The notes: generated from the sequence alone by a model not told the origin. 64,000 nt of DNA from an uncultured delta proteobacterium (GCA_963805315.1 CAWDTQ010000010.1:84114-148113), one strand, 5' to 3'. Shown: positions 7,389 through 46,411, numbered from the stretch's first letter. Numbers and translations: made by a program.

Positions 7389-10268
7389 GTGTTCAAAACC
7401 GGATTCTGGAAACTTGCCGCGCCGTGCCTGCTGATCGTCGCCGCTGCCGTTGCCACCCCGTCGATCGCGATGCAGGGTGACACGATCGCCGACATCGTGC
7501 TGGGCGAGCCGAATTTTTCCGACAATCCTCAGAACTTCATCAGCGCCCGCGGCCTTCACGGTCCTATCGCGGTGGCGATCGATGCGAGCGTGGTTCCGAA
7601 CCGCCTTTACGTCGCCGACAGCACGAACAACCGCATACTGGGTTACAAAGATGTAACCTCCTTGATGAACGGCAGCCTGGCCGATTTGGTGATTGGGCAG
7701 CCCGCCTTTTCTTCAAACGGGTGCAACACCGGCGGGTTGAGCGCCGCCAGCCTGTGCGTGCCTGACGGGGTTGCGGTGGACGCCGGCGGCAACCTGTACG
7801 TTACCGATAGCGAGAACAGCCGCGTGCTCGAGTACACCAGTCCGTTCGCTGGATGCGGCTCGTTCCCCTGCGTGGGCGCACCCGCAAGCCGGGTCTTCGG
7901 CCAAGGCGGAAGCTTCACCACCGCCGCCTGTAACACCGGCGGCATAAGCGCGAACAGCCTATGCGTCCCGTTCGGGGTTGCATTGGATGCCGCTGGCAAT
8001 CTCTACGTCTCGGATTCGGGCAATAGCCGCGTGCTTGAATACAACACTCCGCTTACGACCGACACAACTGCCGACAAAGTCTTCGGGCAAGGAGGAAACT
8101 TTTCTTCCGGCTCATGCGACGGCATCGGCGTCAGCGCGGACAGCCTCTGCGACCCTGCCGGAATCGCACTCGACGGCTCCAGCGATCTCTACATCGCCGA
8201 CGCCAGCAACAACCGCGTACTCGAATACAACACTCCGCTCAACTCCAATACGACTGCGGATACCGTCTTCGGGCAACTGGGCAGCTTCAATTCAAGCGTT
8301 TGCCGGGACGGCGGTTCGCCCTCAAGCAGCAATCTGTGCGCGCCTTCCGGCGTTGTGGTGGACAGCCGCAACAACGTCTACATCGCGGACTACATGGACA
8401 ACCGCGTACTCGAATACGCTAGTCCGCTCACCACCGACACCGTCGCAGACAAAGTGGTTGGCCAGTTCAATTTCTCCACCATCAATTTCAGCGGTTCCAA
8501 TGCAGAAAGCCTCTTCGCACCAGCAGGTCTCGCGCTGGACAGTAGCGGAAATCTGTACGTGGCCGACTATCGCGAGAACCGCGTGCTCCAATACAGGACG
8601 CCACTTCCGGTCAGCGGTGGTTTCGCCCATTTTGCCATCGGTCAGAACACCCTTTCCACTAACGTTATAAACACCGGTGTCACCACTTCTAGCTCCATCT
8701 ACTATCCCGCTTCCGTTGCGATTGACACCAGCGTTGTCCCCAACCGCCTCTATGTCGCCGACCAGTCGAACAGCAGAGTATTGGGCTGGAGAGATCTAAC
8801 GGCGCTTTCAAACAACGAGCCGGCTGACTTGGTGATCGGTCAGCCCGACTTTGTATCGTCGACCTGCGATAACGGTGGGCCTAGCGCTAGTAGTCTCTGC
8901 AACGCCAGCGACCTTGCCGTAGACGGCAGCGGCAACCTCTATGTCGGAGACAACGGCAATGCCCGCGTGCTCGAATACAACACGCCATTCGCGGCATGCA
9001 GTTCATTTCCGTGTGTTGGCGGTTCCGCCAATCTGGTATTAGGGCAGAGCAGCTTCACCGTCGGAATTTGCGACAACGGCGGTGTGACTGCGGCCACTAT
9101 GTGCGTCCCCGCCGGCCTGGCGACGGACTCCGCAGGCAACCTGTACGTTAGCGATGCCACCAACCATCGCGTGCTCGAGTTCAACGCGCCGCTGACTAGC
9201 GGTATGACCGCATCGATGGTGTTCGGCCAGGGCGGCAGTTTCACCTCGCATAGCTGCAACAACGGAGGTACGAACGCCGCTAGCCTGTGCGGACCCAATG
9301 GCCTCGCGGTGGATACCAGCGGCAATCTGTTTGTCGCCGACACCAGCAACTGCCGCGTCCTCGAATACGACAGCCCGCTTACCACCGACACGGTCGCGGA
9401 TCAGGTCTTCGGTCAGCCTGATTTTGTCTCCAGTACGTGCAACAACGGCGGGACCAGCGCCAGCAGCCTGTTTTTCCCGTTTGGAATCGGGCTGGATACC
9501 AGCGGCGATCTTTATATAGCCGACAACGACAACAATCGCGTGCTCGAGTACAACAATCCGCTAACTAACAATGCCGCAAATCTAGTGTTCGGACAGTCCG
9601 GAAACGTCACCTCTGGTACTTGCAATAACGGCGGAGTGAGTGCGAGCAGCCTCTGCGGTCCACTGGATGTAAGGGCGGACTCCAACGGCAATATCTACAT
9701 CGCCGACGCTCTCAACGGTCGCGTACTCGAATACGACCAGCCGCTGGCAACCCCAACGCCAACTCCAACGGCGACCGCAACTGCCACCGCGACGGCGACC
9801 GACGCGTCAACCGCAACTGCGACCGCCACCGCCACAGATACAACGACCGCGACTGCCACGGCTACCGCCACCGCGACGCCGACTGCTACACCTACGCCGA
9901 CCGGCGAAGGCCTCGAGGAGCTGGTAGTCAATCCCTCCCCACCTTCCAAACTCAACTTCGGCACCGTTAGCGTCGGCACCACCAGCGCCTCGCAGACCGC
10001 CACGATAACCAACGAATTCAACGACGACACGGTCGACTTCTTCGCAACCTTTCTGATGGCGAACTTCGTCGAGACCGGCAGCACCTGCAGTTCTTCGTTG
10101 GGACCCCTGCAATCGTGTCAGGTCGATTTCGCATGCAAACCGAAGACGACAGGGTCCATCATCGGAGCCTATGCGTTCCTGTATAGCTCCGTGGAGATAG
10201 CTGGACTTCGCGATGGCGACGATTACCTAAAGATCGGCGTAGCCCAGTTCACCTGCACCGGCAGCTAG
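7389..10268 (+). CDS. Secreted NHL-repeat protein (12 repeats) with Thr/Ala linker and C-terminal Ig-like domain
   Basis: Repeats of SLCxPxG(V/L)A(V/L)DxxGNLYVADxxNxRVLEY; TPTPTATAT linker; LNFGTVSVG Ig domain. Confidence 0.85.
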   Translation: MFKTGFWKLAAPCLLIVAAAVATPSIAMQGDTIADIVLGEPNFSDNPQNFISARGLHGPIAVAIDASVVPNRLYVADSTNNRILGYKDVTSLMNGSLADLVIGQPAFSSNGCNTGGLSAASLCVPDGVAVDAGGNLYVTDSENSRVLEYTSPFAGCGSFPCVGAPASRVFGQGGSFTTAACNTGGISANSLCVPFGVALDAAGNLYVSDSGNSRVLEYNTPLTTDTTADKVFGQGGNFSSGSCDGIGVSADSLCDPAGIALDGSSDLYIADASNNRVLEYNTPLNSNTTADTVFGQLGSFNSSVCRDGGSPSSSNLCAPSGVVVDSRNNVYIADYMDNRVLEYASPLTTDTVADKVVGQFNFSTINFSGSNAESLFAPAGLALDSSGNLYVADYRENRVLQYRTPLPVSGGFAHFAIGQNTLSTNVINTGVTTSSSIYYPASVAIDTSVVPNRLYVADQSNSRVLGWRDLTALSNNEPADLVIGQPDFVSSTCDNGGPSASSLCNASDLAVDGSGNLYVGDNGNARVLEYNTPFAACSSFPCVGGSANLVLGQSSFTVGICDNGGVTAATMCVPAGLATDSAGNLYVSDATNHRVLEFNAPLTSGMTASMVFGQGGSFTSHSCNNGGTNAASLCGPNGLAVDTSGNLFVADTSNCRVLEYDSPLTTDTVADQVFGQPDFVSSTCNNGGTSASSLFFPFGIGLDTSGDLYIADNDNNRVLEYNNPLTNNAANLVFGQSGNVTSGTCNNGGVSASSLCGPLDVRADSNGNIYIADALNGRVLEYDQPLATPTPTPTATATATATATDASTATATATATDTTTATATATATATPTATPTPTGEGLEELVVNPSPPSKLNFGTVSVGTTSASQTATITNEFNDDTVDFFATFLMANFVETGSTCSSSLGPLQSCQVDFACKPKTTGSIIGAYAFLYSSVEIAGLRDGDDYLKIGVAQFTCTGS

Positions 10269-10371
10269 AACTCACTCAACGCCGACGAGTACGGCGACGC
10301 CGCCAGCATCACAATGTCACCCTCACCGGCACCGGCTCGTGAGTTAGTGGAGGGCAAAATAAGTTCTAACA

Positions 10372-10455
10372 GGGGCGAAGCCCCGCATCTTTCCGGATAC
10401 TGGGTGCAGGGGTCACCCCTGCCCAGGGAAGTGTGAAACCCACGGCGGGTTTCAC
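10372..10455 (+). repeat. Family-1 triple-hairpin REP-like element, copy A
   Basis: ggggcgaagcccc / gcaggggtcacccctgc / gtgaaaccc-N5-gggtttcac; same 84-bp layout at 18116 and 20529. Confidence 0.9.
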
Positions 10456-10563
10456 ATTAGATGAAGTGATCTACCCTTCCCCGATCCGCTGGCGTCACGC
10501 TCGCAACTACTTTCAGCTCAAATTGGATATCTATAAAAGGTTGTTTCTCTTTTCAAGAGCTAT

Positions 10564-10592
10564 TTGACTTAAGATTAGCGTAATGGTATCTA
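10564..10592 (+). promoter_or_regulatory. Putative sigma70-type promoter of the first FG-GAP gene
   Basis: TTGACT-N17-TATCTA; the paralogous leader has TTGACT-N17-TAGCTT at 14797-14825. Confidence 0.4.
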
Positions 10593-10679
10593 AGAGTCAG
10601 ATATTTGCGACTAGCCAACCCTTGAGTCGCTTCTGAAACGCCGCGAAGGGGAATGCACTGCTGGTCGGGGGGCATTCGC

Positions 10680-13600
10680 GTGAAGCATAAGAGCCTGACA
10701 GCGACGATGGTATTGCTTGGGGGGGCCATTGCGTTTTCAGTGTGGGCCGATCCAACTGCGCTGAGTATCTCGAACGCCGGCGTTACTGTTACCGGCAGCT
10801 CGTCAACAACCCTTGATTTTCCGATCTCGCGCAGCGGCGATATCAGCTACGACGCCTTCGTTCAATACCAGACGCAGGATGGCACCGCGCTCGCCGGGAC
10901 CGACTACACATCGGCGATGGGGTCGATCGTGATTCCAGCCGGCAAGACCAGCGCGACGATTCCGGTGACGGTCGCCGGCGGTAGCGGCAACCCTCCTGAC
11001 AAAAACTTCCAGATGCTGTTGATGGGCGGCGGGGGTGCGGGAATGGGCTTCACCCCCAGCTTCGCCACGCAGCAGACCTTCGCCGTCGGCAGTGGCCCGC
11101 AGTCGGTGACGATGGCCGATGTCAACGGCGATGGCTTGCCCGATCTCGTCGTCGCAAACGAGAACGACAGCACGGTCTCTGTGCTGCTCAACACCACCCC
11201 CCCGGGTGCCGTCACGCCCAGCTTCGCCACGCAACAGACCTTCAGCACACCCGGCGGTCCGGTGTCGGTGACGGCGGCGGACGTCAACGGCGACGGCCGG
11301 CCCGACCTGATCGTCGCAAATTCGTCCCCGCCTGGCACGGTCTCGGTGCTGCTCAACACCACCGCTCCGGGCGCCACCACGCCCAGCTTTGCCACCCAGC
11401 AGACCTTTGCTGTGGGTAGCGCCCCCTTCTCGGTGACGGCAGCTGACGTTAACGGCGACGGCAAACCAGACCTGGTCGTGGCGAATCTCGACGACAGCAC
11501 GATCTCGGTACTGCTCAACACCACCGCCGCTGGAGCGGCCACGCTCAGCTTCGCCACTCAGCGGACCTTTGCCACGGGCGACGTGACGGGCGGCGAGCCG
11601 TTCTCAGTGACAGTGGCCGACGTCAACGGCGACGGCAAACCAGACATGATCGTGGCGAATTCGCTCGACAGCACGATCTCGGTTCTGCTCAACACCACCG
11701 CTTCGGGCGCGGCCACGCCCAGCTTCGCAACTCAGCAGACCTTTGCCACGGCTTTATCCCCGGTGTCGGTGGCGGTGGCCGACGTCAACGGCGATGGCAG
11801 GCCCGACCTGATCGCGGCGAACCGGGACGACAACACGGTCTCGGTGCTGCTCAACACCACCGCTCCGGGCGCTACCACACCCAGCTTTGCTACCCAGCAG
11901 ACCTTTGCTGCAGGCAGTGCCCCCTTCTCGGTAACGGCGGCTGACGTCAACGGTGACGGCAAGCCTGACCTGATCGTGACGAATTTCAGCGACAACACGG
12001 TTTCGGTGCTGCTCAACACCACCGCCCCGGGCGCCGCTTCCCCCAGCTTCACCAGACAGCAGACCTTTGCCACGGGTACCAACCCGCGCTCGGTGACGGC
12101 GACCAACGTCAACGGCGACGGCAAGCGCGATCTGATCGTTATTAATGAGGGTGACAACTCGGTCTCGGTGCTGCTCAACACCACTCCAGCCCCTGCGACG
12201 ACCTTAGGCGCCAACAGCTTCGCCACCCAGCAGACTTTCGATACGGGCAGCACGCCGTACTTGGTGACGGCCGCCAACGTCAACAGCGACGGCAAGCCCG
12301 ACCTGATCGTCGCGAATTTCAGCGACAACACGGTCTCGGTGCTGCTCAACACCACCGCCCCGGGCGCCATTGCCACTAGCTTCACCACCCAGCAGACCTT
12401 CGCCACGGGCAACTTTCCGCAGTCAGTTGCGGCTGCCGACCTCAACGGCGACGGCAGGCCCGACCTCATCGTGGCCAATGGGGGCGACAACACTGTATCA
12501 GTGCTGCTCAACACCACCGCTCCGGGCGCCACCACCCCCGGCTTCGCCACCGAGCAGGCCTTCACCACGGGCACCGAGCCGGTCTCGGCGACGGCCGCCG
12601 ATGTCAACGGCGACGGCAGGCCCGACCTGATCGTCGCGAATTCCACCGGCAATTCGGTCTCGGTTCTGCTCAACACCACCGCGCCGGGCGCGACCACGCC
12701 CAGCTTCGCCACCCAGCAGGCCTTTGCTGCGGGCAGCTTCCCGGAGTCAGCGACGGTGGCCGACGTAAACGGCGACGGCAAGCCCGACCTTATCGTCCCG
12801 AATGAAGGCGACAACACTGTCTCGGTGCTGCTCAACACCACTGCCCCGGGCGCCACCACCCCCAGCTTCGCCCCCCAGCAACCCTTTGCAACGGGTTTGA
12901 CCCCATTCTCTGTAATAGCAGCCGACGTCAACGGCGACGGCAAGCCCGATCTGATCGTGGCGAACACGGGCGACAACACGGTCTCGGTGCTGCTCAACAC
13001 CACCGCCCCGGGGGCGGCCACGCCCAGCTTCGCCACCCAGCAGACCTTCGCTGTTGGCGGCGGGCCGATCTCGGTGACCGCGGCGGAAGTCAACGGCGAT
13101 GGTAGGCCCGACCTCATCGTGGCGAATGAGTTCGACAACACGGTCTCGGTGCTGCTCAACACCACCGCCACGGGCGCCATCACGCCCAGCTTTGCCACCC
13201 AGCAGACCTTTGCTGTGGGCGCCAACCCGACTTGGGTGACGGCGGCCGACGTCAACGGCGACGGCAAGCCCGACCTGATCGTCACGAATGGAGCCGACAA
13301 CACGGTCTCCATGCTGCTCAACAGCCTGTACGCGGCCACCCTGTCTGGCAGCCCGGCAACCGGAACAATCCATTACAGCATGCCGCCAACGACCGCTTCG
13401 CTGTTGGCGCTTGCCTTCGGCAACGTTCCGGTTGAGGACACGGTCACTAGGAACATCACGGTCAGAAACACCGGCCACGCGCCACTTTACGTCGGCAACG
13501 TAACCTCGAGCGATGCTGAATTCGCAATCACGGGCGCCACTACGTGTCCCAGGGCGGACTCGCGCCCGGTCTGACCTGCACTATTGCGGTCAGCTTCACG

Positions 13601-14653
13601 CCGAGCGGGCTCGGGCCACATAGCGCGACGCTGTCGGTCACCGACAACACCGCGAGCAGTCCGCAGCATGTGGCGGCCAGCGGCACCGGCACCGCCGACA
13701 TGACGGTCGCGCCCGCGAGTTACGGGTTCGGCAGCGTCAAGGACGGCTCCAAGGCGGTCAAGGCGATCGTCGTGCACAACTATCAGACCAACCCGGTCTC
13801 GCTCAGTGAAAACTTCAGCGGACCCAACGCCGGCGATTTCTCGATCACCGGGGGTACCTGCACCGCGACCCTGGCCTCGAAGACAGTTTGTACGCTGGTC
13901 GTTACTTTCGCGCCAACATCTACCGGCACCGAATCGGCGACCATGACGGTTACCGACAGCCCCGATCCGCTCGGTCCGTACACGGTCTCATTCAGCGCGT
14001 CGGCAACCATTCCAGAATCGCTGTCGGCGCCGAAGTTGATCTTCGGCTATGTCTACCAGACGGCGTCCAAGACGTTGAACATCACTCTTACCAATAAGGC
14101 CACCAGCGGCGCGATCACGCTCACCGGAACGAACATCGGCGGCGCCAACTCAGGCGACTTCGCCGTGACGGGCGGGACATGCACCGGCACGCTGGCGGCG
14201 TCGTCGAGCTGCACCTACGCGCTGACGTTTACTCCGACCGAGACGGCGGAGAGCGGCACGCTTTCAATCGGCGTCGCGGAAGATCCCAATGGCGGCCCCC
14301 CGGCAGTCGGCCTGAGCGGAACCGGATTGGTGCCGCTTAGGGTAGTCCCGGCGAGCATCGCTTTCGGCACCGTCGCAGGCGGCCATTCCTCGATCAACAG
14401 GACCGTGACGGTGATCAACAGCGGCGGCGGATCGGTTTCATTGAGCGAGAGCGTCACCGGCGCCAACTTCGCCGACTTCGCGGTGACGGGAGGGACGTGC
14501 AATGGCACATTGGCGGGTGGCGGCGCATCATGCACCTATCTGCTGAAGTTCGCCCCGAGCATCGTCGGCGCCGAGAGCGCGACGCTCGGCGTCACCGCCG
14601 CCAGCGATGCAGCCAGCCCCCACAACGTAACCCTGACAGGCACCGGTAACTAG
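10680..14653 (+). CDS. Secreted Calx-beta plus 14 FG-GAP repeat protein with three C-terminal Ig-like domains; frameshift ~13555
   Basis: 14 x DVNGDG(K/R)PDLIVAN..NTVSVLLNT; Calx-beta YQTQDGTALAGTDY; ORFs 10653-13574 and 13544-14653 join; GTG 10680 matches the paralog start. Confidence 0.8.
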
Positions 14654-14672
14654 CCGGCTATCCCGATGACGA

Positions 14673-14705
14673 AACCGCCGGAGCGAATCAATCGCTCCGG
14701 CGGTT
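14673..14705 (+). terminator. Stem-loop, likely terminator
   Basis: aaccgccggagcga-atcaa-tcgctccggcggtt, 20 bp after the stop codon. Confidence 0.7.
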
Positions 14706-14916
14706 CAAGCCATACCTATCTGCCGGCGCGCCGCTTGGAACTACTTTCAGCTATAATTCGATACCTATAAGTCGTTTTTTCGTTTACAAGAGCTATTTGA
14801 CTTAATGCTAACGCGTCAGTAGCTTACGCCTCCAATATCTGCGACTAGTCCAGCCTCGGGTCGCTTCTGAAACGCTGCGAACGGGGGAATGCGCAGCTAG
14901 TCGGGGGGGAATTCGC

Positions 14917-17900
14917 GTGAGACATAAGAGCCTAACGGCGACGATACTGCTGCTCGCAGTGGGGATTGCGTTTTCGGTGTGGGGCGATCCCACCTCGATC
15001 AGCATATCGAACGGCAGCGCTACGGTAACCAGCAGTTCTTCAACCACACTTGATTTTCCAATCTCGCGCAGCGGCGATACCAGCTACGACGCCTTCGTTC
15101 AGTATCAGACTTTAGACGGCACCGCGATCGCCGGGACCGACTACACAGCGGCGAGCGGGTCGATTGTGATTCCGGCCGGCACGACCAGCTCGATGATTCC
15201 GGTGACGGTCGCCGGCAGCAACAGCAATTCCCCGACAAAACTTTTCAGATGCTATTGCTGGGCGGCGGCGGTGCAGCGAGGAGCTTCACGCCCAGCTTCG
15301 CCACCCAGCAGACCTTCGCCACGGGCAGCGTTCCGAAATCGGTGACGGCGGCGGACGTGAATGGTGACGGCAAACCCGACCTGATAGTCCGAATCTACGA
15401 CAGCAACACGGTTTCGGTGCTGCTCAACACCACCGCCCCGGGCGCCGCCACGCCCAGCTTCGCTACCCAGCAGACCTTCGCTGTTGGCAGCGAACCGCAA
15501 TTCGGTGACGGTGGCGGACATCAACGGCGACGGCAAGCCCGACCTGATCGTGGCGAACGAGGGTAGCAACACGGTCTCGGTGCTGCTCAACACCACCGCC
15601 CCGGGGGCCAGCCACGCCGAGCTTCGCCACCCAGCAGACTTTCGCCACGGGCAGCAGCCCGATTTCGGTGACGGCGGCCGACGTCAACGGCGACGGCAAG
15701 CCCGACCTGATCGTCGCGAATGCTAACGACAACACCGTATCGGTGCTGCTCAACACCACCGCGCCGGGTGCCAGCACCGCCAGCTTCGCGCCCAGCAGAC
15801 TTCGCCACTGGCAGCGAGCCCGCGGTCGGTGACGGCGGCGGACGTCAATGGCGACGGCAAGCCCGACCTGATCGTCGCGAACCAAACCGGCAACACGCGT
15901 CTCGGTGCTGCTCAACACCACCGCCCCGGGCGCCAGCCACACCCAGCTTCGCCGCCCAGCAAACCTTTGCCACCGGCAGGACCCGATTCTGTGATGGCGG
16001 CAGACGTCAACGGCGACGGCAAGCCCGACCTGATCGTAGCGAATCAAATCGGCACAGTTTCAGTGCTGCTCAACACCACCGCTCCCGGTGCGCCACGCCC
16101 AGCTTCGCCACTCAGCAGACCTTTACGACGGGCAGCACTCCGGTGTCGGTGACAACTGGCAGACCTCAACGGCGACGGCAAGCCGGACCTGATCACGGCC
16201 AACGCCGGCGGCAACACGGTCTCAGTGCTGCTCAACACCACTCGCGCCGACGGCGCCGACGCGCCTAGCTTCGCCACCCAGCAGACCTTCGCCACGGGCA
16301 GCGAGCCGCGCTCGGTGACGGTGGCCGACGTCAACGGCGACGGCAAGCCTGACCTGATCGTCGCGAATTACGCGAGCAACACGGTCTCGGTGCTGCTCAA
16401 CACCACCGCCCGCGCCGACGACGCCTTTGACGGCAATAGCTTCGCCACCCAGCAGACCTTCGCCACGGGCAACGATCCGGACTCGGTGACGGCGGCCGAC
16501 GTCAACGGCGACGGCAAGCCCGACCTGATCGTGGCGAATTCGGTACCGGCTGCGGCAACACGGTATCGGTGCTCCTCAACACCACCGCCCCAGGCGCCGC
16601 CACGCCCAGCTTCGCCACCCAGCAGACTTTTGCCACAGGCACCGGCCCGTCTTCGGTGACAGCTGCCGACATCAACGGCGACGGCAAACCCGACCTGATC
16701 GTAGCGAATTTGGAAGCCCCCAACACGGTGTCGGTGCTACTCAACACCACCGCCCCGGGAGCTACCACCCCCAGCTTCGCCACTCAGCAGACCTTTGCCA
16801 CAGGCAACAATCCAAGCTCAGTGACGGCGGTCGACGTAAACGGCGACGGCAGACCGGACCTAATCGTTGCGAACGGATTTGACTCCACGGTCTCGGTGCT
16901 GCTCAACACCACCGCCCCGGGTGCTGCCACGCTCAGCTTCGCCGCCCAGCACACCTTTGCTACGGGCAGTTTCGACCACCCGTTCTCGGTGACGGCAGCC
17001 GACGTCAACGGAGACGGCAAGCCCGACCTGATCGTTGCGGATGAAACCGCCACTGGTACGGTCTCGGTGCTGCTCAACACCACGGTGCCGGGAGCCACCA
17101 CTCCCAGCTTCGCCACCCAGCAGACTTTTGCCGTAGGCAGCTACGCGGCCTCGGTGACGGCGGCGGACGTCAACGGCGACGGCAAGCTGGACCTGATCGT
17201 CGCGAACGAAAACGACAGCACCGTATCGGTACTGCTCAACACGACGGCCCCGGGTGTCACCGCGCCCAGCTTCGCGACAGAGCAGACCTTCTCCACGGGC
17301 AGTTCCCCGACAGCGGTGACGATCGCCGACATCAACGGCGACGGCAAGCCCGACCTCATCGTGGCGAATGTGCTAGGCGGCACGGTCTCGGTGCTGCTCA
17401 ACAACCTGTACGGCACCAATCTGTCCGGCAGCCCGGCGACCGGAACAATCCACTACAGCGTACCGACGCCAACACCGACCGCGACCGCCACAGCTACTGC
17501 GACGGCCACTGCCACATCGACGGCCACCGCAACCGCAACGCCCACAGCTACTGCAACCGCCACGGCAACTGCTGTCGCGACCTCGACCGCCACCGCGACG
17601 GCCACCCCAACAGCCACGGTGACGCCGACTGCTACGCCTACGCCGACCGGTGAAGGCCTGGAGGAGCTGGTAGTCAATCCCTCACCCCCCTCCAAACTCA
17701 ACTTCGGCACCGTCAGCGTCGGCACCACCAGCGCCCCGCAGACCGCTACGATAACCAACGAATTCAACGACGACACGGTCGACTTCTTCGGGACCTTTCT
17801 CATGGCGAACTTCGTCAAGACCGGCAGCACCTGCGGTGCTAGTTTGGGACCCCTGCAATCGTGTCAGGTCATTTCGCATGCAAGCCGAAGACTACCGGCT

Positions 17901-18013
17901 CTCTCATCGGAGCCTATGCGTTCCTGTACAGCTCCGCGGAGATAGCTGGACTTCGCGATGGCGACGATTACCTAAAGATCGGCGTAGTCCAATTCACCTG
18001 CACTGGCGATTGA
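14917..18013 (+). CDS. Paralogous Calx-beta/FG-GAP protein with Thr/Ala linker and single Ig-like domain; many frameshifts (pseudogene or read errors)
   Basis: ORF fragments 14917, 15249, 15484, 15829, 16225, 16569 all carry the same FG-GAP unit; the C-terminus matches the NHL gene and ends GVVQFTCTGD at TGA 18011-18013. Confidence 0.7.
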
Positions 18014-18115
18014 AACTATTCAACGCCGACGAGTACAGCGACGCGGCCAGCCCGCACAACGTCACCCTCACCGGCACCGGCTCGTGAGTCAGTGGAGGCA
18101 AAATAAGTTCTAACA

Positions 18116-18199
18116 GGGGCGAAGCCCCGCATCTTTCCGGATACTGGGTGCAGGGGTCACCCCTGCCCAGGGAAGTGTGAAACCCACGGAGGGTTTCAC
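18116..18199 (+). repeat. Family-1 REP-like element, copy B
   Basis: Near-identical to 10372-10455. Confidence 0.9.
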
Positions 18200-18320
18200 A
18201 TTAGATGAAGTGATCTCCCCTTCCCCCTCCCTGCCCTGCCATTTTTCCTTTGCTCATTCACCTGCTAATGTTCACCCCGAAAATCGCCCCACCGTCGGTA
18301 CCGGAAAGGAGAACGCGACC

Positions 18321-18983
18321 ATGACCATCAAAGAGCGAATCGGGTTTGTGACCCTGACTCTCGCCGCCGCATTCGTCGGAGGCGCTGTGTCCGGCCATAT
18401 TTTCGCCGCCCGCGCCGTCGACGCTGCCGCCGCCCCTAGGATGATCACCGCGCAGAAGTTCATGCTCGTTGACTCCCGCGGCAAGACCCGCGGCGAGTTC
18501 AACGTCACCCGCAAAGGCGTCGCGCAAATCGCCGTCTTCGATGGAACCGGGACCTTGCGCGCCGGACTCGGCGTCGGCGCCGACGGCGCCCCCGCTCTCG
18601 GTATCTACGGCCGCGACGGCAAGCCGCGCGCCGAGGTCGGACTCACCCGCAGCGTCGCCCGCGTCGTGCTGTTCGACGCGAACGCCAATCCGCAAGCCAT
18701 GCTCGGCGTCGCTCCCGACGGCCAGAGCGGCATCGGCCTGATGGACACAAAAGGCAATCCGCGCGCCTCGATCATCGTGCAGCCCGACGGTACTCCCACG
18801 CTGCGCCTAGCCGACGAGCATCGCGGCCGCATCGGCATGGATATGACGCCCGACGGACGGCCCGGCCTCGCACTGCTCGGCAACGACGGCAAGACCCGCG
18901 CCTCGCTCACCCTCAATACCGACGGCGCGGGCGCGCTGACGTTGTTCGACGCCGGCGGCAACCCGGTCAACTCCGTCCCCTGA
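18321..18983 (+). CDS. Exported/membrane-anchored protein with ~22-aa beta-strand repeats (hypothetical)
   Basis: aaggag RBS before ATG 18321; N-terminal hydrophobic helix; repeats L.L.D..G..RA.L.V..DG.P. Confidence 0.75.
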   Translation: MTIKERIGFVTLTLAAAFVGGAVSGHIFAARAVDAAAAPRMITAQKFMLVDSRGKTRGEFNVTRKGVAQIAVFDGTGTLRAGLGVGADGAPALGIYGRDGKPRAEVGLTRSVARVVLFDANANPQAMLGVAPDGQSGIGLMDTKGNPRASIIVQPDGTPTLRLADEHRGRIGMDMTPDGRPGLALLGNDGKTRASLTLNTDGAGALTLFDAGGNPVNSVP

Positions 18984-18996
18984 TCGACGCTTCACA

Positions 18997-19024
18997 GGGC
19001 GGCCCGCATCGGCCGCCCTTTTTT
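18997..19024 (+). terminator. Rho-independent terminator
   Basis: gggcggcc-cgcatc-ggccgccc followed by tttttt. Confidence 0.85.
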
Positions 19025-19081
19025 CTCAGCGCAGCGAGTAACTAAGTTGTTGGATTACTAAAAAGAGTGGAAAAAGAACCA

Positions 19082-19576
19082 ATGCCACGACGCTCTTCCG
19101 CTCCACTCGTCCGCGTCCTGTTGATCGCCGCGCTTTCGGCCGCGCTCTTTGGATGCGGTTCGATCAAGCAATCAGTCGAGCCCCAGCCGCCGACGCCCCA
19201 GCAGCAGGCCGAGCAGCTCGAGCCGATGCTTTCTGCGGCCGGCTTCCGAATGCTTCCCGCGGACACTCCCGAGCGCCAGACCCAACTGCAGTCTCTGGTA
19301 CCGCTCCAGGTCAATTACTATGTCGGCAAGACCGGCAACCTGCACTACTACATGGCCGATCCTGACTACTGTAAGTGTATGTACATCGGCAGCGAGCAGG
19401 ACTATCAGCAGTTCGAGAAGTTGAAGCTCAACCAACAGTACCAGGCAAAGGAAGGCGAGATTTCACGCGAGAACCTGGAAGCCCAGCAGATGGAAGAGAT
19501 GCAGTTCCAGGAAGAGGCCTTCAATCCTTACGGCCTGGGCCTCGTCGGCCCGATGGGCCCTGCGATGTACTGGTGA
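19082..19576 (+). CDS. Putative lipoprotein
   Basis: Basic N-terminus, hydrophobic stretch, lipobox LFGC; ORF open from 19067. Confidence 0.7.
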   Translation: MPRRSSAPLVRVLLIAALSAALFGCGSIKQSVEPQPPTPQQQAEQLEPMLSAAGFRMLPADTPERQTQLQSLVPLQVNYYVGKTGNLHYYMADPDYCKCMYIGSEQDYQQFEKLKLNQQYQAKEGEISRENLEAQQMEEMQFQEEAFNPYGLGLVGPMGPAMYW

Positions 19577-19641
19577 CCACGACAACCACCGCCGTCCTCT
19601 CAGATTGATCTCGCAGCCGATTTCAACTTTCCTGAATCACA

Positions 19642-20457
19642 ATGCACTTTGACGCTTTCGTCGAGCGATGCCGCGCGCAATGGCCCGAGTTTGCCGACTC
19701 TCGCCGCCTCGCCCGCTCGACTCATCCCGCCGACCGCTCGCTCTCGCACATCCTCGACGAGATCCCCGCGATGGCCACCGAGAACAAGCTCCGCCTCCTC
19801 AATTGCGCGGTCGCGTCGCTCGACGCCGCCGGCGGCGAAGTTTACGTCGAAGTGGGATGCTACAAAGGTGCTTCTCTGGTCGGCGCCGCGGCCTCCAACC
19901 CGCGCGCACGCATCTTCGCATGCGACAATTTCTCGCAGTTCGACGGCGCCGCCGACGCGCTCCGCCGCACCCTCGACGCGCACACCGCGCCCGGCCAGGT
20001 CATCTTCCACGACCGCGACTTCCGCGACTTCCTCGCCGCCGCGCCATGGCGTCCCGCGCGCATCGGCGCCTACTTCTACGACGGCGGCCACTCCTTTGCC
20101 GATCAGTATGACGGCGTCGCACTCGCAATCCCTCACCTCGCCGACGACGCCCTCGTCATCATCGACGACACCAACAAACGCGCCGCGCGCTCCGCCAACC
20201 GCCTCGTCGCGCGCGCCGTCCCCGGCTTCGAGCTCGTCCTCGACTTGCGAACGCCGCGCAACCACTCTCCCACATGGTGGAACGGCGTGCAGGTCTTCCG
20301 CTATCGACGCCACCCGAACGACGCCGCGATTCGATTCCCCAACTCGGGCTTCGCGCTAAGAAAACTAATTTACGACGATATCTTCCTGAAAATGAAACAC
20401 AGCCGCCGAGCCCGCCGAGCACTCCGCAAATCGATCAAGCAGCGCACCAAGGCCTGA
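19642..20457 (+). CDS. Class I SAM-dependent methyltransferase (Methyltransf_24-like)
   Basis: YVEVGCYKGASL, FACDNF, YFYDGGH, VIIDD motifs. Confidence 0.8.
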   Translation: MHFDAFVERCRAQWPEFADSRRLARSTHPADRSLSHILDEIPAMATENKLRLLNCAVASLDAAGGEVYVEVGCYKGASLVGAAASNPRARIFACDNFSQFDGAADALRRTLDAHTAPGQVIFHDRDFRDFLAAAPWRPARIGAYFYDGGHSFADQYDGVALAIPHLADDALVIIDDTNKRAARSANRLVARAVPGFELVLDLRTPRNHSPTWWNGVQVFRYRRHPNDAAIRFPNSGFALRKLIYDDIFLKMKHSRRARRALRKSIKQRTKA

Positions 20458-20528
20458 CCTGTCTTGCGATTAAGCAGATGGCGACAAAAGTCGCCATCCG
20501 CGCGCAGCCCCCAACCCAACTTCGAACA

Positions 20529-45100: not shown

Positions 45101-46411
45101 ACCCCGACCACAAGCGCAACGACAACTGCCACAGCGACGACAACCTCGACGCAGACGGCGACGCAGACTGCGACAGCGACCGGAACATCAACCGCAACGC
45201 CGACCACAAGCGCAACGTTTACCGCGACCGCGACCTCGACGCAGACGGCGACCGACACATCAACCGCGACGCCGACTGCAACGCAAACTCAGACCGCCTC
45301 TGCCACGGCGACCTCTACTCCGACTGCGACCTCTACTCCGACGGCGACGCCAACCGTGACCGCAACGGCAAGTGCAACCGCAACCACAACGGCAACTCCA
45401 ACCGCGACAGCCACCGCGACGGCGACTACTACACCGACCGCAGCGCCGACTACTTCGATGTCGGTTACTTCTTCGCTCGGGTTCGGCAATGTGGCCGTAG
45501 GCCAGACTTCCGCCAAGACCGTGACGGTGTCTAACAAGGGCAGGAAACATCCGCTGATGGTCTCGAGCGCGACGATGTCGGATCCGGAATATGCTTTGAG
45601 CGGGAAAGGAACCTGCGGTGCGATTCCCGTGACGGTTGCACCGCGGAAGTCCTGCTCGCTTGGCCTCACATTCACGCCCGCTTCGCTCGGGTTGCACAGC
45701 GCTACGCTTGCGCTCAGCGACAACACCATGACCAGTGCGCAGCATGTGGCGCTCTCCGGCACCGGCATTGGCGGCTTGAGTACCTCGAGCACCAGCTCGG
45801 TGTTCGGGATTGTGACGTTCGGCTCGACGGCGGCGAACAGCCTCACGGTTACCAACAATCAGGCGCAGCCGGTGACGCTGAGCGAGAGTTTCAGCGGGAC
45901 CAACGCCGCCGACTTCTCGATTACCGGCGGCACCTGCCCCAACGCCCCGGCCACGCTTGCGGCCAAGACCTCGTGCAAGGTCACAGTGACCTTCAAGCCG
46001 GGTGCGCTGGGAGCAGAATCCGCGACGCTGTCGATGTCCGACACTCCCGATTCGCTGGGCCCTTACGACGTCGCACTAACTACTGGCGCGACCGTTCCGG
46101 CCGCCGTCACGCCGACGTCGATGCGCTACGGCACCGTCTCGCGCGCGTCGTCGAAGACGCTCTCCGCTACCGTCACGAACATGTCGCCATTCACGCTGTC
46201 GCTTGACAGTACTGTCGACGGCCTCAATGCGGGCGACTTCCCGATCACTGGCGGCACCTGCGGCTCGACGCTTGCGGGCAACTCGTCATGCACGGTCGCG
46301 GTAATGTTCAAACCGACCAAGAAGACGACCGAGAGCGCCACGCTGGCAGGCACGGTCAGCTCCGATCCGACCAGCCCGCATAAAGTCGCCCTCAAAGGCA
46401 AAGGCTCGTGA
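42135..46411 (+). CDS. Secreted S53 (sedolisin/kumamolisin) protease with ~500-aa Thr/Ala stalk and three Ig-like domains; frameshift ~44715
   Basis: Pro-domain (F...F.PT....DAVKNWL..AGF), EAQLDIDY, SSGDWG, GGTSLSAP, FDLVTGWGSP; ORFs 42135-44897 and 44936-46411. Confidence 0.85.
44364..44900 (+). repeat. Tandem ~180-bp units in the stalk
   Basis: gcgactcagacggcgacgg recurs at 44364, 44544, 44720 and 44876 (periods 180, 176, 156). Confidence 0.8.

What the first reader, a model, noticed from the sequence alone, without database searches (positions are those of the whole stretch)
9875..18228. ~600-bp direct repeat gives an NHL gene and an FG-GAP gene the same tail, scar and REP
9875-10485 and 17622-18228 are near-identical. 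Each covers the end of the stalk, the single-Ig anchor (EGLEELVVNPSPPSKLNFG...QFTCTG), a downstream relic and a family-1 REP. The two FG-GAP genes lie between the repeats. This is direct evidence of head swapping onto a shared anchor, and it predicts RecA-mediated deletion or amplification of the 7.7 kb between them.
Basis: partly seen in the sequence, partly recalled or inferred. Interest (0 to 1): 0.65.

Follow-up and report, generated by a model that had tools for sequence, protein, structure and literature searches.

The report
Shared gene tail at surface-protein hotspot
Two unrelated secreted-protein genes of an uncultured soil bacterium (Candidatus Binatus) carry the same 610-bp 3' end, consisting of a small Ig-like end domain, a 16-codon leftover of an older tail and a genome-wide hairpin repeat; this is a clear recombination scar showing how tails are exchanged between surface-protein genes, and it is an instructive case of ordinary genome evolution.

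Summary
The repeat is real: 9875-10483 and 17622-18227 align over 610 columns with 44 mismatches and 4 gap columns (92%, so not "near-identical"). The right edge is sharp, at the end of a REP element. The left edge fades into the Thr/Ala/Pro linker.

Each copy holds five parts:
- the linker end
- a 121-aa C-terminal Ig domain of the ASH / choice-of-anchor-D type (the "anchor")
- 23-24 nt of that domain's own 3' flank
- a 16-codon relic of a displaced multi-Ig tail
- one copy of a 145-member REP family

Related genomes show that the locus is a hotspot next to a conserved core block. One relative has only the NHL gene there and another only an FG-GAP gene. Both of those genes end in a multi-Ig tail, then the REP, then the core block. 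Copy B's relic and REP are therefore in their ancestral place. The anchor replaced an older tail once, joining at a (G)GCGAC microhomology. The composite 3' end was then shared between the two genes by ectopic recombination, with the linker and the REP as arms.

So it was the tail that moved, not the heads. The assembly has indel errors, so the "broken" FG-GAP gene may not be a pseudogene.

The parts
7389..10268 (+). NHL-repeat secreted protein (959 aa, intact): signal peptide, about 10 NHL blades, Thr/Ala/Pro linker, terminal Ig domain
   Evidence: ORF and translation. Pfam NHL 3.3e-70. The head orthologue in L004 is 75% nt identical over window 7374-9903.
9742..9902 (+). Thr/Ala/Pro linker of the NHL gene. 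The last ~28 nt (from 9875) belong to the shared block. The linker end ...TPTATPTPT-GEG is conserved in anchor-bearing proteins of other genomes.
   Evidence: D7; P0006, P0010, P0013, P0014, P0016.
9875..10483 (+). Repeat copy A (609 nt)
9903..10268 (+). Terminal Ig domain A ('anchor', GEGLEELVV...QFTCTGS) plus TAG stop
   Evidence: NF012200 choice_anch_D scores 44.8 bits against a cut-off of 45. Pfam ASH 1.7e-4. AF2 model pLDDT 80, 8-strand beta sandwich. Best PDB matches are the VesB Ig-fold domain and HYDIN/CEP192 ASH domains.
10269..10292 (+). Native 3' flank of the anchor cassette (AACTCACTCAACGCCGACGAGTAC)
   Evidence: The same flank follows the anchor stop in G024 (through GGCGAC) and, in diverged form, in G009, L068, L069 and L071.
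10293..10342 (+). Relic A: the last 16 codons (GDAAS-HNVTLTGTGS) plus TGA of a displaced multi-Ig tail. It has a 1-nt deletion, lies out of frame with the anchor, and is untranslated.
   Evidence: It matches the ends of FG-GAP1 (14603-14653), C7:465566 and the L001 NHL homologue.
10357..10483 (+). REP A: a three-hairpin member of a 145-copy genomic repeat family
   Evidence: nhmmer. RNA fold -61.5 kcal/mol, z = -3.2. No Rfam family.
10484..10652 (+). Upstream region U1 of FG-GAP gene 1, homologous to 14715-14916 and to the FG-GAP upstream region of G021
   Evidence: (D15, D17).
10653..14653 (+). FG-GAP gene 1: Calx-beta, 14 FG-GAP units and four choice-of-anchor-D Ig domains ending ...SDAASPHNVTLTGTGN*. 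One frame break at the CCC run near 13546, which is probably an assembly error.
14917..18013 (+). FG-GAP gene 2: same head type (80% nt identical to gene 1 at the 5' end), then linker and terminal Ig domain B. At least 10 frame breaks, 9 of them within 15230-16550.
17622..18227 (+). Repeat copy B (606 nt): linker end, anchor 17649-18013 (1-nt deletion after 17870), native flank 18014-18036, relic 18037-18087 (SDAASPHNVTLTGTGS*, frame intact), REP 18101-18227
18228..20500 (+). Start of a conserved core block, present in 43 of 47 Binatus genomes at about 80-83% nt identity. In G009, G018, G021 and L004 it is preceded by a REP at the same site.

Best explanation
The block is the shared 3' module of two secreted-protein genes at a variable surface-protein hotspot. 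The hotspot abuts a conserved core block.

Step 1 (inferred from the scar). The gene next to the core block originally ended in linker, multi-Ig (choice-of-anchor D) tail, stop, about 13 nt, and then the REP, as its counterparts in G021 and L004 still do. A cassette taken from another gene replaced that tail. The cassette consisted of a linker end, a 121-aa terminal Ig domain, its stop codon and about 24 nt of its own 3' flank. The left joint lies in the repetitive Thr/Ala/Pro linker. The right joint is illegitimate, at a 5-6 nt (G)GCGAC microhomology 16 codons before the old stop, which fits homology-facilitated illegitimate recombination. The last 16 codons of the old tail and the REP were left behind as the untranslated relic.

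Step 2 (shown that it happened; direction inferred). The composite 3' end came to sit on both the NHL gene and FG-GAP gene 2 by non-reciprocal homologous recombination (gene conversion). The linker served as the left arm and the relic/REP as the right arm. That is why identity stops exactly at the REP end. This happened after the two FG-GAP genes duplicated: the block is 92% identical, against 80% for the FG-GAP 5' regions.

Step 3 (suggested). The four anchor copies in the genome keep exchanging short patches.

The same logic, in which C-terminal Ig tails are exchanged among unrelated heads at the linker, recurs elsewhere in this window and in related genomes.
For: Repeat anatomy and its sharp right edge at the REP end.

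The REPs are mutual nearest relatives: 98.4%, against a family median of 82%.

The relic matches multi-Ig tail ends: 14 of 16 residues shared with the FG-GAP1 end, and 69-82% nt identity to three tail ends.

The native 3' flank of the anchor is conserved in G024 through GGCGAC. After that point the window copies switch to tail sequence.

Synteny:
- G021 has Phi1-like gene | FG-GAP-linker-multi-Ig tail (...PHQVNLTGTGS*) | REP | core.
- L004 has Phi1-like gene | NHL-linker-multi-Ig tail | REP | core.
- G009 and G018 have the REP at the same junction.
- The core block starts at 18228 in 43 of 47 genomes.

Tail distribution:
- Orthologues of both heads elsewhere carry multi-Ig tails.
- Within the genus the anchor occurs only in G000 (4 copies), G009 and G024, and in G009 and G024 it sits on CSLREA beta-helix heads.
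- In metagenomes it ends proteins of at least 7 head types.

Timing: the FG1/FG2 5' regions are 80% identical, against 92% for the block.

Mosaic anchors: quartet site patterns are 7/6/7 with clustered patches, for example five linked sites at 10148-10158.

Parallel cases:
- triple-Ig tails 3480-4461 and 45430-46411 are about 90% identical on unrelated heads
- tail-sharing pairs elsewhere in the genome
- shared tails on adjacent genes in L004 and L005
Against: The direction of step 2 is not settled. The NHL orthologue in L004 also ends in multi-Ig tail plus REP directly on the core block. Copy A's relic and REP could therefore be the NHL gene's own, homogenised later (see the stacking rival).

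The microhomology joint rests mainly on one outgroup flank (G024).

A formal recombination test on the anchors was not significant (PHI p = 0.25). With dS of 0.25-0.7, homoplasy could produce some of the mosaic pattern.

The REP (98.4%) is more conserved than the coding part (91%). This needs either patchy conversion of the anchors from the C1 copies or a separate, later conversion of the right end.

No read-level data were available.
Confidence: 0.6

Rival explanations
1. Allele stacking made the repeat. The resident arrangement was NHL-linker-tail-REP directly on the core block, as in L004. An incoming FG-GAP cassette, as in G021, was added rather than swapped in. Its left arm (another gene's Ig-tail end plus REP) recombined with the resident NHL tail-REP, and its right arm recombined with the core block. 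The tail-end/REP duplication dates from that insertion, and the anchor spread to both copies later by conversion.
For: The L004 and G021 haplotypes each have one of the two gene types abutting REP plus core. Tails of neighbouring genes are alike, and REPs follow them in L004. An earlier follow-up in this same genome reported a stacked allele with a displaced 3' end (e1-2805239).
Against: The block (92%) is younger than the FG1/FG2 duplication (80%), so a later conversion between A and B is needed in any case. In G021 the FG-GAP upstream region is not preceded by a REP. The donor would have needed the composite module twice, or the anchor must have been copied afterwards.
Confidence: 0.25
2. 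Unequal crossing-over (tandem segmental duplication) between the linkers of the NHL gene and an FG-GAP gene duplicated the block together with the DNA between the copies. A later deletion trimmed the second unit.
For: The linkers are long (ACN GCN)n-like repeats that could misalign (D7). The FG-GAP genes are themselves a tandem pair.
Against: The sequence after copy B (18228 onward) is the conserved core block, not a second copy of 10484 onward (32% identity). This model therefore needs an extra deletion that ends exactly at the REP end. The block is also younger than the FG-GAP duplication.
Confidence: 0.05
3. The REP, or an enzyme acting on it, mobilised the adjacent DNA, so that the anchor-relic-REP unit moved as a REP-linked mobile unit.
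For: The right edge coincides with the REP end to the base. All four anchor genes have a family-1 REP within 400 nt downstream, against 4% of all long ORFs. L068 and L069 differ by the presence or absence of a REP at the same site.
Against: No Y1 (RAYT-type) transposase was found in the genome, which is 88% complete. There are no target duplications or inverted ends around the block. REP B is at an orthologous site in four other genomes, so it did not arrive with the anchor. The left edge is diffuse inside a linker.
Confidence: 0.05
4. Assembly artefact: the block was duplicated or mis-joined in a metagenome-assembled genome.
For: The genome is a 16-contig MAG with demonstrable indel errors in essential genes. 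The reads could not be inspected.
Against: The copies differ at 44 positions and 4 indel columns, mostly synonymous in the coding part (dN/dS 0.19). Each copy is continuous with a different head and a different flank. The REP B-core junction is orthologous in G009, G018, G021 and L004. There are no Ns or contig ends nearby.
Confidence: 0.03

Closest known systems
Homology-facilitated illegitimate recombination (HFIR; described in Acinetobacter baylyi and Streptococcus pneumoniae, from my own knowledge)
   Same: One joint lies in a homologous or repetitive segment (the linker). The other is an illegitimate joint at a 5-6 nt microhomology ((G)GCGAC). The end of the replaced gene is left behind as a scar.
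   Different: Here the 'anchor' homology is a low-complexity coding linker rather than flanking genomic homology. The donor may be a paralogue in the same genome rather than transforming DNA. The event is inferred from one scar and was not observed.
Gene conversion and concerted evolution of C-terminal modules among bacterial surface-protein paralogues, and C-terminal displacement in rhs/cdiA loci (from my own knowledge)
   Same: Non-reciprocal copying of a 3' module between genes with different N-terminal parts. An old C-terminal end is displaced downstream of the new stop codon.
   Different: There is no toxin/immunity pair. The relic is only 16 codons, not an orphan module. The exchanged module is a structural Ig domain. 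The tract includes non-coding DNA and a REP.
REP / REPIN elements (repetitive extragenic palindromes)
   Same: A 125-nt multi-hairpin intergenic repeat with 145 copies in both orientations, usually just downstream of stop codons.
   Different: No RAYT-type transposase was detected and there is no Rfam family. Here the REP serves at most as a passive homology arm or boundary.
Choice-of-anchor D / ASH (HYDIN, CEP192) / VesB Ig-fold domain
   Same: Sequence matches (NF012200 at 44.8 bits, ASH 1.7e-4) and fold matches (VesB 4lk4, TM-score 0.66 normalised to the query; HYDIN; CEP192).
   Different: It is a distinct subfamily that always sits at the extreme C-terminus and ends ...QFTCTG[SG]. It has four invariant Cys and no sorting signal after it, unlike VesB, which ends in GlyGly-CTERM.
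T9SS C-terminal domains (shared beta-sandwich CTDs on many cargo heads)
   Same: A small terminal beta sandwich joined through linkers to many unrelated secreted heads.
   Different: No sequence or fold match to T9SS CTDs was seen. Whether Binatia possess a T9SS was not examined. This is an analogy only.

Membership tests
Choice-of-anchor D domain (NCBIfam NF012200) | Score at or above the curated cut-off (45 bits) against the domain model | tested here: inconclusive
   The isolated anchor scores 44.8 bits (E 1.5e-11), 0.2 bits below the cut-off. The multi-Ig tail of FG-GAP1 scores 179 bits with 4 domains.
ASH / HYDIN-VesB-like Ig fold | Seven- to eight-stranded PapD-like beta sandwich superposable on solved ASH/VesB domains | tested here: met
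   AF2 model with pLDDT 80 and 8 strands. Foldseek top hits are VesB 4lk4 (E 2e-6, TMq 0.66), HYDIN, and CEP192 SPD-2/ASH. Pfam ASH is below its gathering score (22 against 27 bits).
REP/REPIN with RAYT | Short palindromic intergenic repeat in many copies | tested here: met
   145 nhmmer hits, 90 of them near full length, on both strands. Stable multi-hairpin fold.
REP/REPIN with RAYT | A cognate Y1 (RAYT) transposase in the genome | tested here: not met
   PF01797 has no match in G000, while the positive controls respond. The genome is only 88% complete.
Gene conversion between paralogous segments | A contiguous tract of raised identity bounded by sequence that both loci already share, with unrelated DNA beyond | tested here: met
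   The tract is 92% identical and bounded by the linker (left) and the REP end (right). Identity is 32% beyond the right edge. The heads are unrelated.
Gene conversion between paralogous segments | Phylogenetic incongruence or mosaicism along the tract | tested here: inconclusive
   Quartet patterns are 7/6/7 with clustered patches, but PHI gives p = 0.25.
Homology-facilitated illegitimate recombination | An illegitimate joint at a short microhomology opposite a homologous joint | tested here: inconclusive
   The cassette flank (G024) and the tail ends (L001, C7) overlap at GGCGAC, exactly where the window sequence switches from one to the other. This rests on a single outgroup.
Rhs/CdiA-type C-terminal displacement | Displaced orphan C-terminal toxin modules with immunity genes downstream | tested here: not met
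   Only a 16-codon relic follows the stop, and the next feature is a REP. There are no toxin or immunity domains.
Tandem segmental duplication | The sequence after the second repeat copy repeats the sequence after the first | tested here: not met
   10484 onward and 18228 onward are 32% identical. 18228 onward is the conserved core block.

The most novel reading that the evidence does not exclude
In Binataceae, secreted-protein genes may be built as exchangeable cassettes of upstream region, head, Thr-rich linker, Ig tail and REP. In this reading, the conserved linker end and the tail-end/REP module act as portable homology arms. Whole genes or tails could then be stacked, swapped or lost at hotspots without any dedicated recombinase, giving an integron-like diversification system that runs on homologous recombination. 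The FTCTG-terminal Ig domain would be a new lineage-specific C-terminal attachment or export module.
Probability: 0.15. Interest if true: 0.6.

Novelty: new member of a known kind. Interest (0 to 1): 0.35.

Why it matters
This is an unusually legible record of how modular surface proteins are rebuilt in an uncultured soil phylum. One scar shows the donor cassette with its own 3' flank, the microhomology joint, the leftover of the replaced tail and the boundary repeat. Three related haplotypes show the same locus holding different genes (NHL only, FG-GAP only, or both).

It gives a concrete and testable model: linkers and REPs act as recombination arms for tail exchange. It also defines a small terminal Ig domain (ending ...QFTCTG[SG]) found on at least 7 head types, whose function is unknown.

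It does not reveal a new mechanism. Gene conversion, illegitimate recombination and domain shuffling are well known.

Tried and rejected
- **Other assemblies of the same population.** Exact-protein look-ups for two core-block genes found nothing. The NHL protein is known from this contig only.
- **Metagenome scan for the anchor.** It gave only 4 short loci. None has the relic.
- **Rfam.** No family matches the REP or anything else in 9000-19500 apart from a sub-threshold chance hit.
- **RAYT transposase.** Absent.
- **PHI recombination test on the anchors.** Not significant.
- **Promoter/terminator scan.** No more sites than in shuffled sequence.
- **Literature.** Nothing on Binatia surface proteins or on exchange of choice-of-anchor cassettes.
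- **Treating FG-GAP gene 2 as a proven pseudogene.** Rejected. The assembly carries 1-nt insertions in purA and a serA-like gene and splits a Cu-ATPase gene, about 5 frame breaks in 76 kb of conserved coding sequence. FG-GAP arrays are also broken in several other Binatus MAGs.
- **A firm B-to-A direction.** I considered this after seeing G021 and softened it after L004 showed that NHL can also abut REP plus core.
Full report
**Observation**

The repeat finder, a pairwise alignment and blastn against the whole assembly all recover the repeat. A global alignment with coordinate bookkeeping gives 9875-10483 against 17622-18227: 610 columns, 44 mismatches and 4 gap columns, or 92.1% identity. Identity collapses to 32% immediately after 10483/18227. 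On the left it decays to about 63% inside the Thr/Ala/Pro linker. The longest identical runs are 93, 50 and 43 nt. The window is C10:84114-148113 of a 4.25-Mb, 16-contig assembly. The genus is Candidatus Binatus, family Binataceae (source names).

**Anatomy**

Copy A ends the intact NHL gene 7389-10268 (959 aa). Copy B ends FG-GAP gene 2 (14917-18013). Each copy has the following parts, in order:

- The last ~28 nt of the linker.
- A 121-aa terminal Ig domain, GEGLEELVV...QFTCTGS/D, plus its stop codon (A 9903-10268, B 17649-18013).
- 24/23 nt that also follow the same domain's stop codon in other genomes (A 10269-10292, B 18014-18036). G024 matches through GGCGAC, and G009, L068, L069 and L071 match in diverged form.
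- A relic of 16 codons plus TGA (A 10293-10342, B 18037-18087). It reads (G/S)DAAS(P)HNVTLTGTGS*.
- A short spacer.
- A 125-nt REP (A 10357-10483, B 18101-18227).

The relic has the same ending as the four-domain choice-of-anchor-D tail of FG-GAP gene 1 (...SDAASPHNVTLTGTGN*, 14653), a tail at C7:465566, and the NHL homologue in L001 (...GDAASPHNVSLTGTGS*). It is out of frame with the anchor in both copies, and in A it carries a 1-nt deletion.

The REP belongs to a family with 145 nhmmer hits in the genome, 90 of them near full length. It folds into three hairpins and matches no Rfam family. REP A and REP B are mutual nearest neighbours: 98.4%, against 91% for the next and a family median of 82%.

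**The terminal domain**

- It scores 44.8 bits on NF012200 (choice-of-anchor D), against a cut-off of 45. It is a weak Pfam ASH match.
- An AlphaFold model built on a 15-sequence alignment has pLDDT 80 and is an eight-stranded beta sandwich.
- Its best PDB neighbours are the Ig-fold domain of Vibrio VesB and the HYDIN/CEP192 ASH domains.
- It has four invariant cysteines and always ends the protein with ...QFTCTG[SG]. No hydrophobic segment or known sorting signal follows, so 'anchor' is only a label.
- The genome has four close copies: A, B and two on contig C1. C1b sits on an NHL paralogue whose head is 53.5% identical to the window gene. C1a sits on a CSLREA beta-helix protein.
- Among the 41 genomes searched (24 other Binatus genomes and 16 from other families of the class), only G009 and G024 have the close full-length form. 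Each has a single copy on a CSLREA head.
- In the 5.8-billion-protein collection it ends proteins with CSLREA/PMP, NHL, Kelch, PQQ-like, TIGR03803-repeat, beta-helix and unassigned heads. These often have the same linker end...TPTATPTPT-GEG.

**Comparative evidence, which decides most of the interpretation**

The DNA to the right of copy B (18228 onward) is a conserved core block. It is found in 43 of 47 Binatus genomes at about 80-83% identity, and homology often starts within a few bases of 18228. The left flank is not syntenic.

In G009, G018, G021 and L004, a family-1 REP sits at the same place directly upstream of this block. Three haplotypes of the locus are visible:

- **L004** (MAG MFD10064.bin.1.24): orthologue of window gene 1642-4461 | NHL orthologue (75% nt identical to window 7374-9903) with linker and multi-Ig tail | REP | core.
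- **G021:** the same first gene | FG-GAP orthologue (79% nt identical to window 14742-17403) with linker and multi-Ig tail ending ...PHQVNLTGTGS* | about 13 nt | REP | core.
- **The window:** the same first gene | two extra genes | NHL-block A | FG-GAP1 with multi-Ig tail | FG-GAP2-block B | core.

Three conclusions follow:

- Copy B's relic and REP are where the end of a multi-Ig tail and its REP lie in relatives. They are in situ.
- Both head types normally carry multi-Ig tails, so the single-Ig anchor is the newcomer on both genes.
- The arrangement expected from a deletion between A and B, with NHL directly on REP plus core, exists as a natural haplotype in a relative, though with a different tail.

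**Mechanism**

The anchor arrived with 24 nt of its own 3' flank. The sequence switches from that flank to tail sequence at (G)GCGAC, a motif present both in the G024 flank and in tail ends. This indicates one illegitimate joint at a microhomology, while the other joint lies in the repetitive linker. That pattern fits homology-facilitated illegitimate recombination.

Because A and B share this unique joint, it arose once. The composite module then came to sit on both genes by ectopic homologous recombination. The linker on the left and the relic/REP on the right were the only sequences the two loci could share, which explains the sharp right edge.

The block (92%) is younger than the duplication of the two FG-GAP genes, whose upstream and 5' regions are 80% identical. 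So a conversion between A and B after that duplication is required under any scenario.

Whether A's relic and REP were copied from B, or are the NHL gene's own and were homogenised later (the allele-stacking rival), cannot be decided. NHL in L004 also ends in tail-REP-core.

A simple tandem duplication is unlikely because the sequence after B is the core block, not a repeat of 10484 onward.

REP-driven transposition is unlikely for three reasons. No RAYT-type gene was found. REP B is orthologous across species. And another tail-sharing pair in this window ends exactly at the stop codon with no REP involved: the triple-Ig tails 3480-4461 and 45430-46411, about 90% identical with no gaps.

**Age and selection**

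- For the anchors, A against B gives dS 0.25 and dN/dS 0.19. Both copies therefore evolved under purifying selection for a considerable time, and the pair is not recent.
- Site patterns among the four genomic anchors are reticulate. AB|C1aC1b has 7 sites, A-C1a|B-C1b has 6 and A-C1b|B-C1a has 7, and they are spatially clustered, for example five linked sites at 10148-10158.
- This fits short-patch conversion among paralogues. It would also explain why the coding part (91%) is more diverged than the REP (98.4%). However, a PHI test was not significant.

**Assembly quality and the 'broken' genes**

FG-GAP gene 2 needs at least 10 frame changes, nine of them within 15230-16550. FG-GAP gene 1 needs one, at a CCC run. 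Anchor B needs one.

I compared 57 conserved ORFs from related loci with this assembly. About five are split between frames, including 1-nt insertions in purA and a serA-like gene. Single frameshifts here are therefore not evidence of pseudogenes.

The cluster in FG-GAP2 is far above that background. However, FG-GAP arrays are also fragmented in several other Binatus MAGs. I leave open whether this is real decay or a consensus error in the tandem array.

Misassembly of the repeat itself is very unlikely. The copies have 48 differences, mostly synonymous in the coding part. Each has distinct flanks. The REP B-core junction is orthologous in four other genomes.

**What could not be done**

The predicted deletion or amplification of the 7.7 kb therefore remains untested. 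A 93-nt identical run is enough for RecA-type exchange, but 8% divergence and the long coexistence of the copies argue that it is rare.

**Verdict**

- The phenomenon is a well-preserved instance of known processes (illegitimate plus homologous recombination, domain shuffling, concerted evolution) at a surface-protein hotspot in an uncultured lineage.
- The more ambitious reading is not excluded, but it is not shown. In that reading, linker-tail-REP modules work as a general, recombinase-free cassette system, and the FTCTG domain is a new export or attachment module.

Noticed in passing
window 3480-4461 and 45430-46411: A second tail-sharing pair. Triple-Ig (choice-of-anchor D type) tails on two unrelated heads are about 90% identical without gaps. 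Homology starts in the linker end and stops at the stop codon.
   Followed up: partly
window 7233-7285: A ~53-nt element just upstream of the NHL gene. It recurs at 90-98% identity in many copies in nearly every Binatus genome searched, and in G000 at C14:744268. It is a different, highly conserved small repeat family.
   Followed up: no
G000 C14:~292388 (purA), C14:~288840 (serA-like), C14:381364-381401 (Cu-ATPase), C2:172241-172288: Conserved housekeeping genes are split between reading frames, with 1-nt insertions relative to a close relative. The assembly therefore carries indel errors at roughly one per 15 kb of coding sequence, which affects every 'pseudogene' call in this genome.
   Followed up: partly
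G000 C1:218408-220181 and C1:226074-229121: Two more genes end in the same terminal Ig domain (85-89% aa identity). One has a CSLREA beta-helix head and the other an NHL paralogue head. Neither has the relic. All four anchor genes have a family-1 REP within 400 nt downstream, against 4% of all long ORFs.
   Followed up: partly
L004 7175-9610 and 9914-15283; L005 6943-8904 and 9881-12658: In two related MAGs, adjacent genes with different heads carry nearly identical Ig tails behind similar linker ends. Tail homogenisation between neighbouring genes therefore looks common in Binataceae.
   Followed up: no
L068 against L069 (JGI soil metagenome contigs): Two contigs share the anchor gene end and 40 nt downstream. 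They then differ by the presence or absence of a family-1 REP, which looks like a REP insertion polymorphism.
   Followed up: no
G000 C10:170560-173995 (outside the window), and G057, G014, G041, G051: A third FG-GAP paralogue lies in this genome. FG-GAP homologues in other Binatus MAGs are often fragmented into short open frames. This is either recurrent decay or systematic consensus errors in 162-nt tandem arrays.
   Followed up: no
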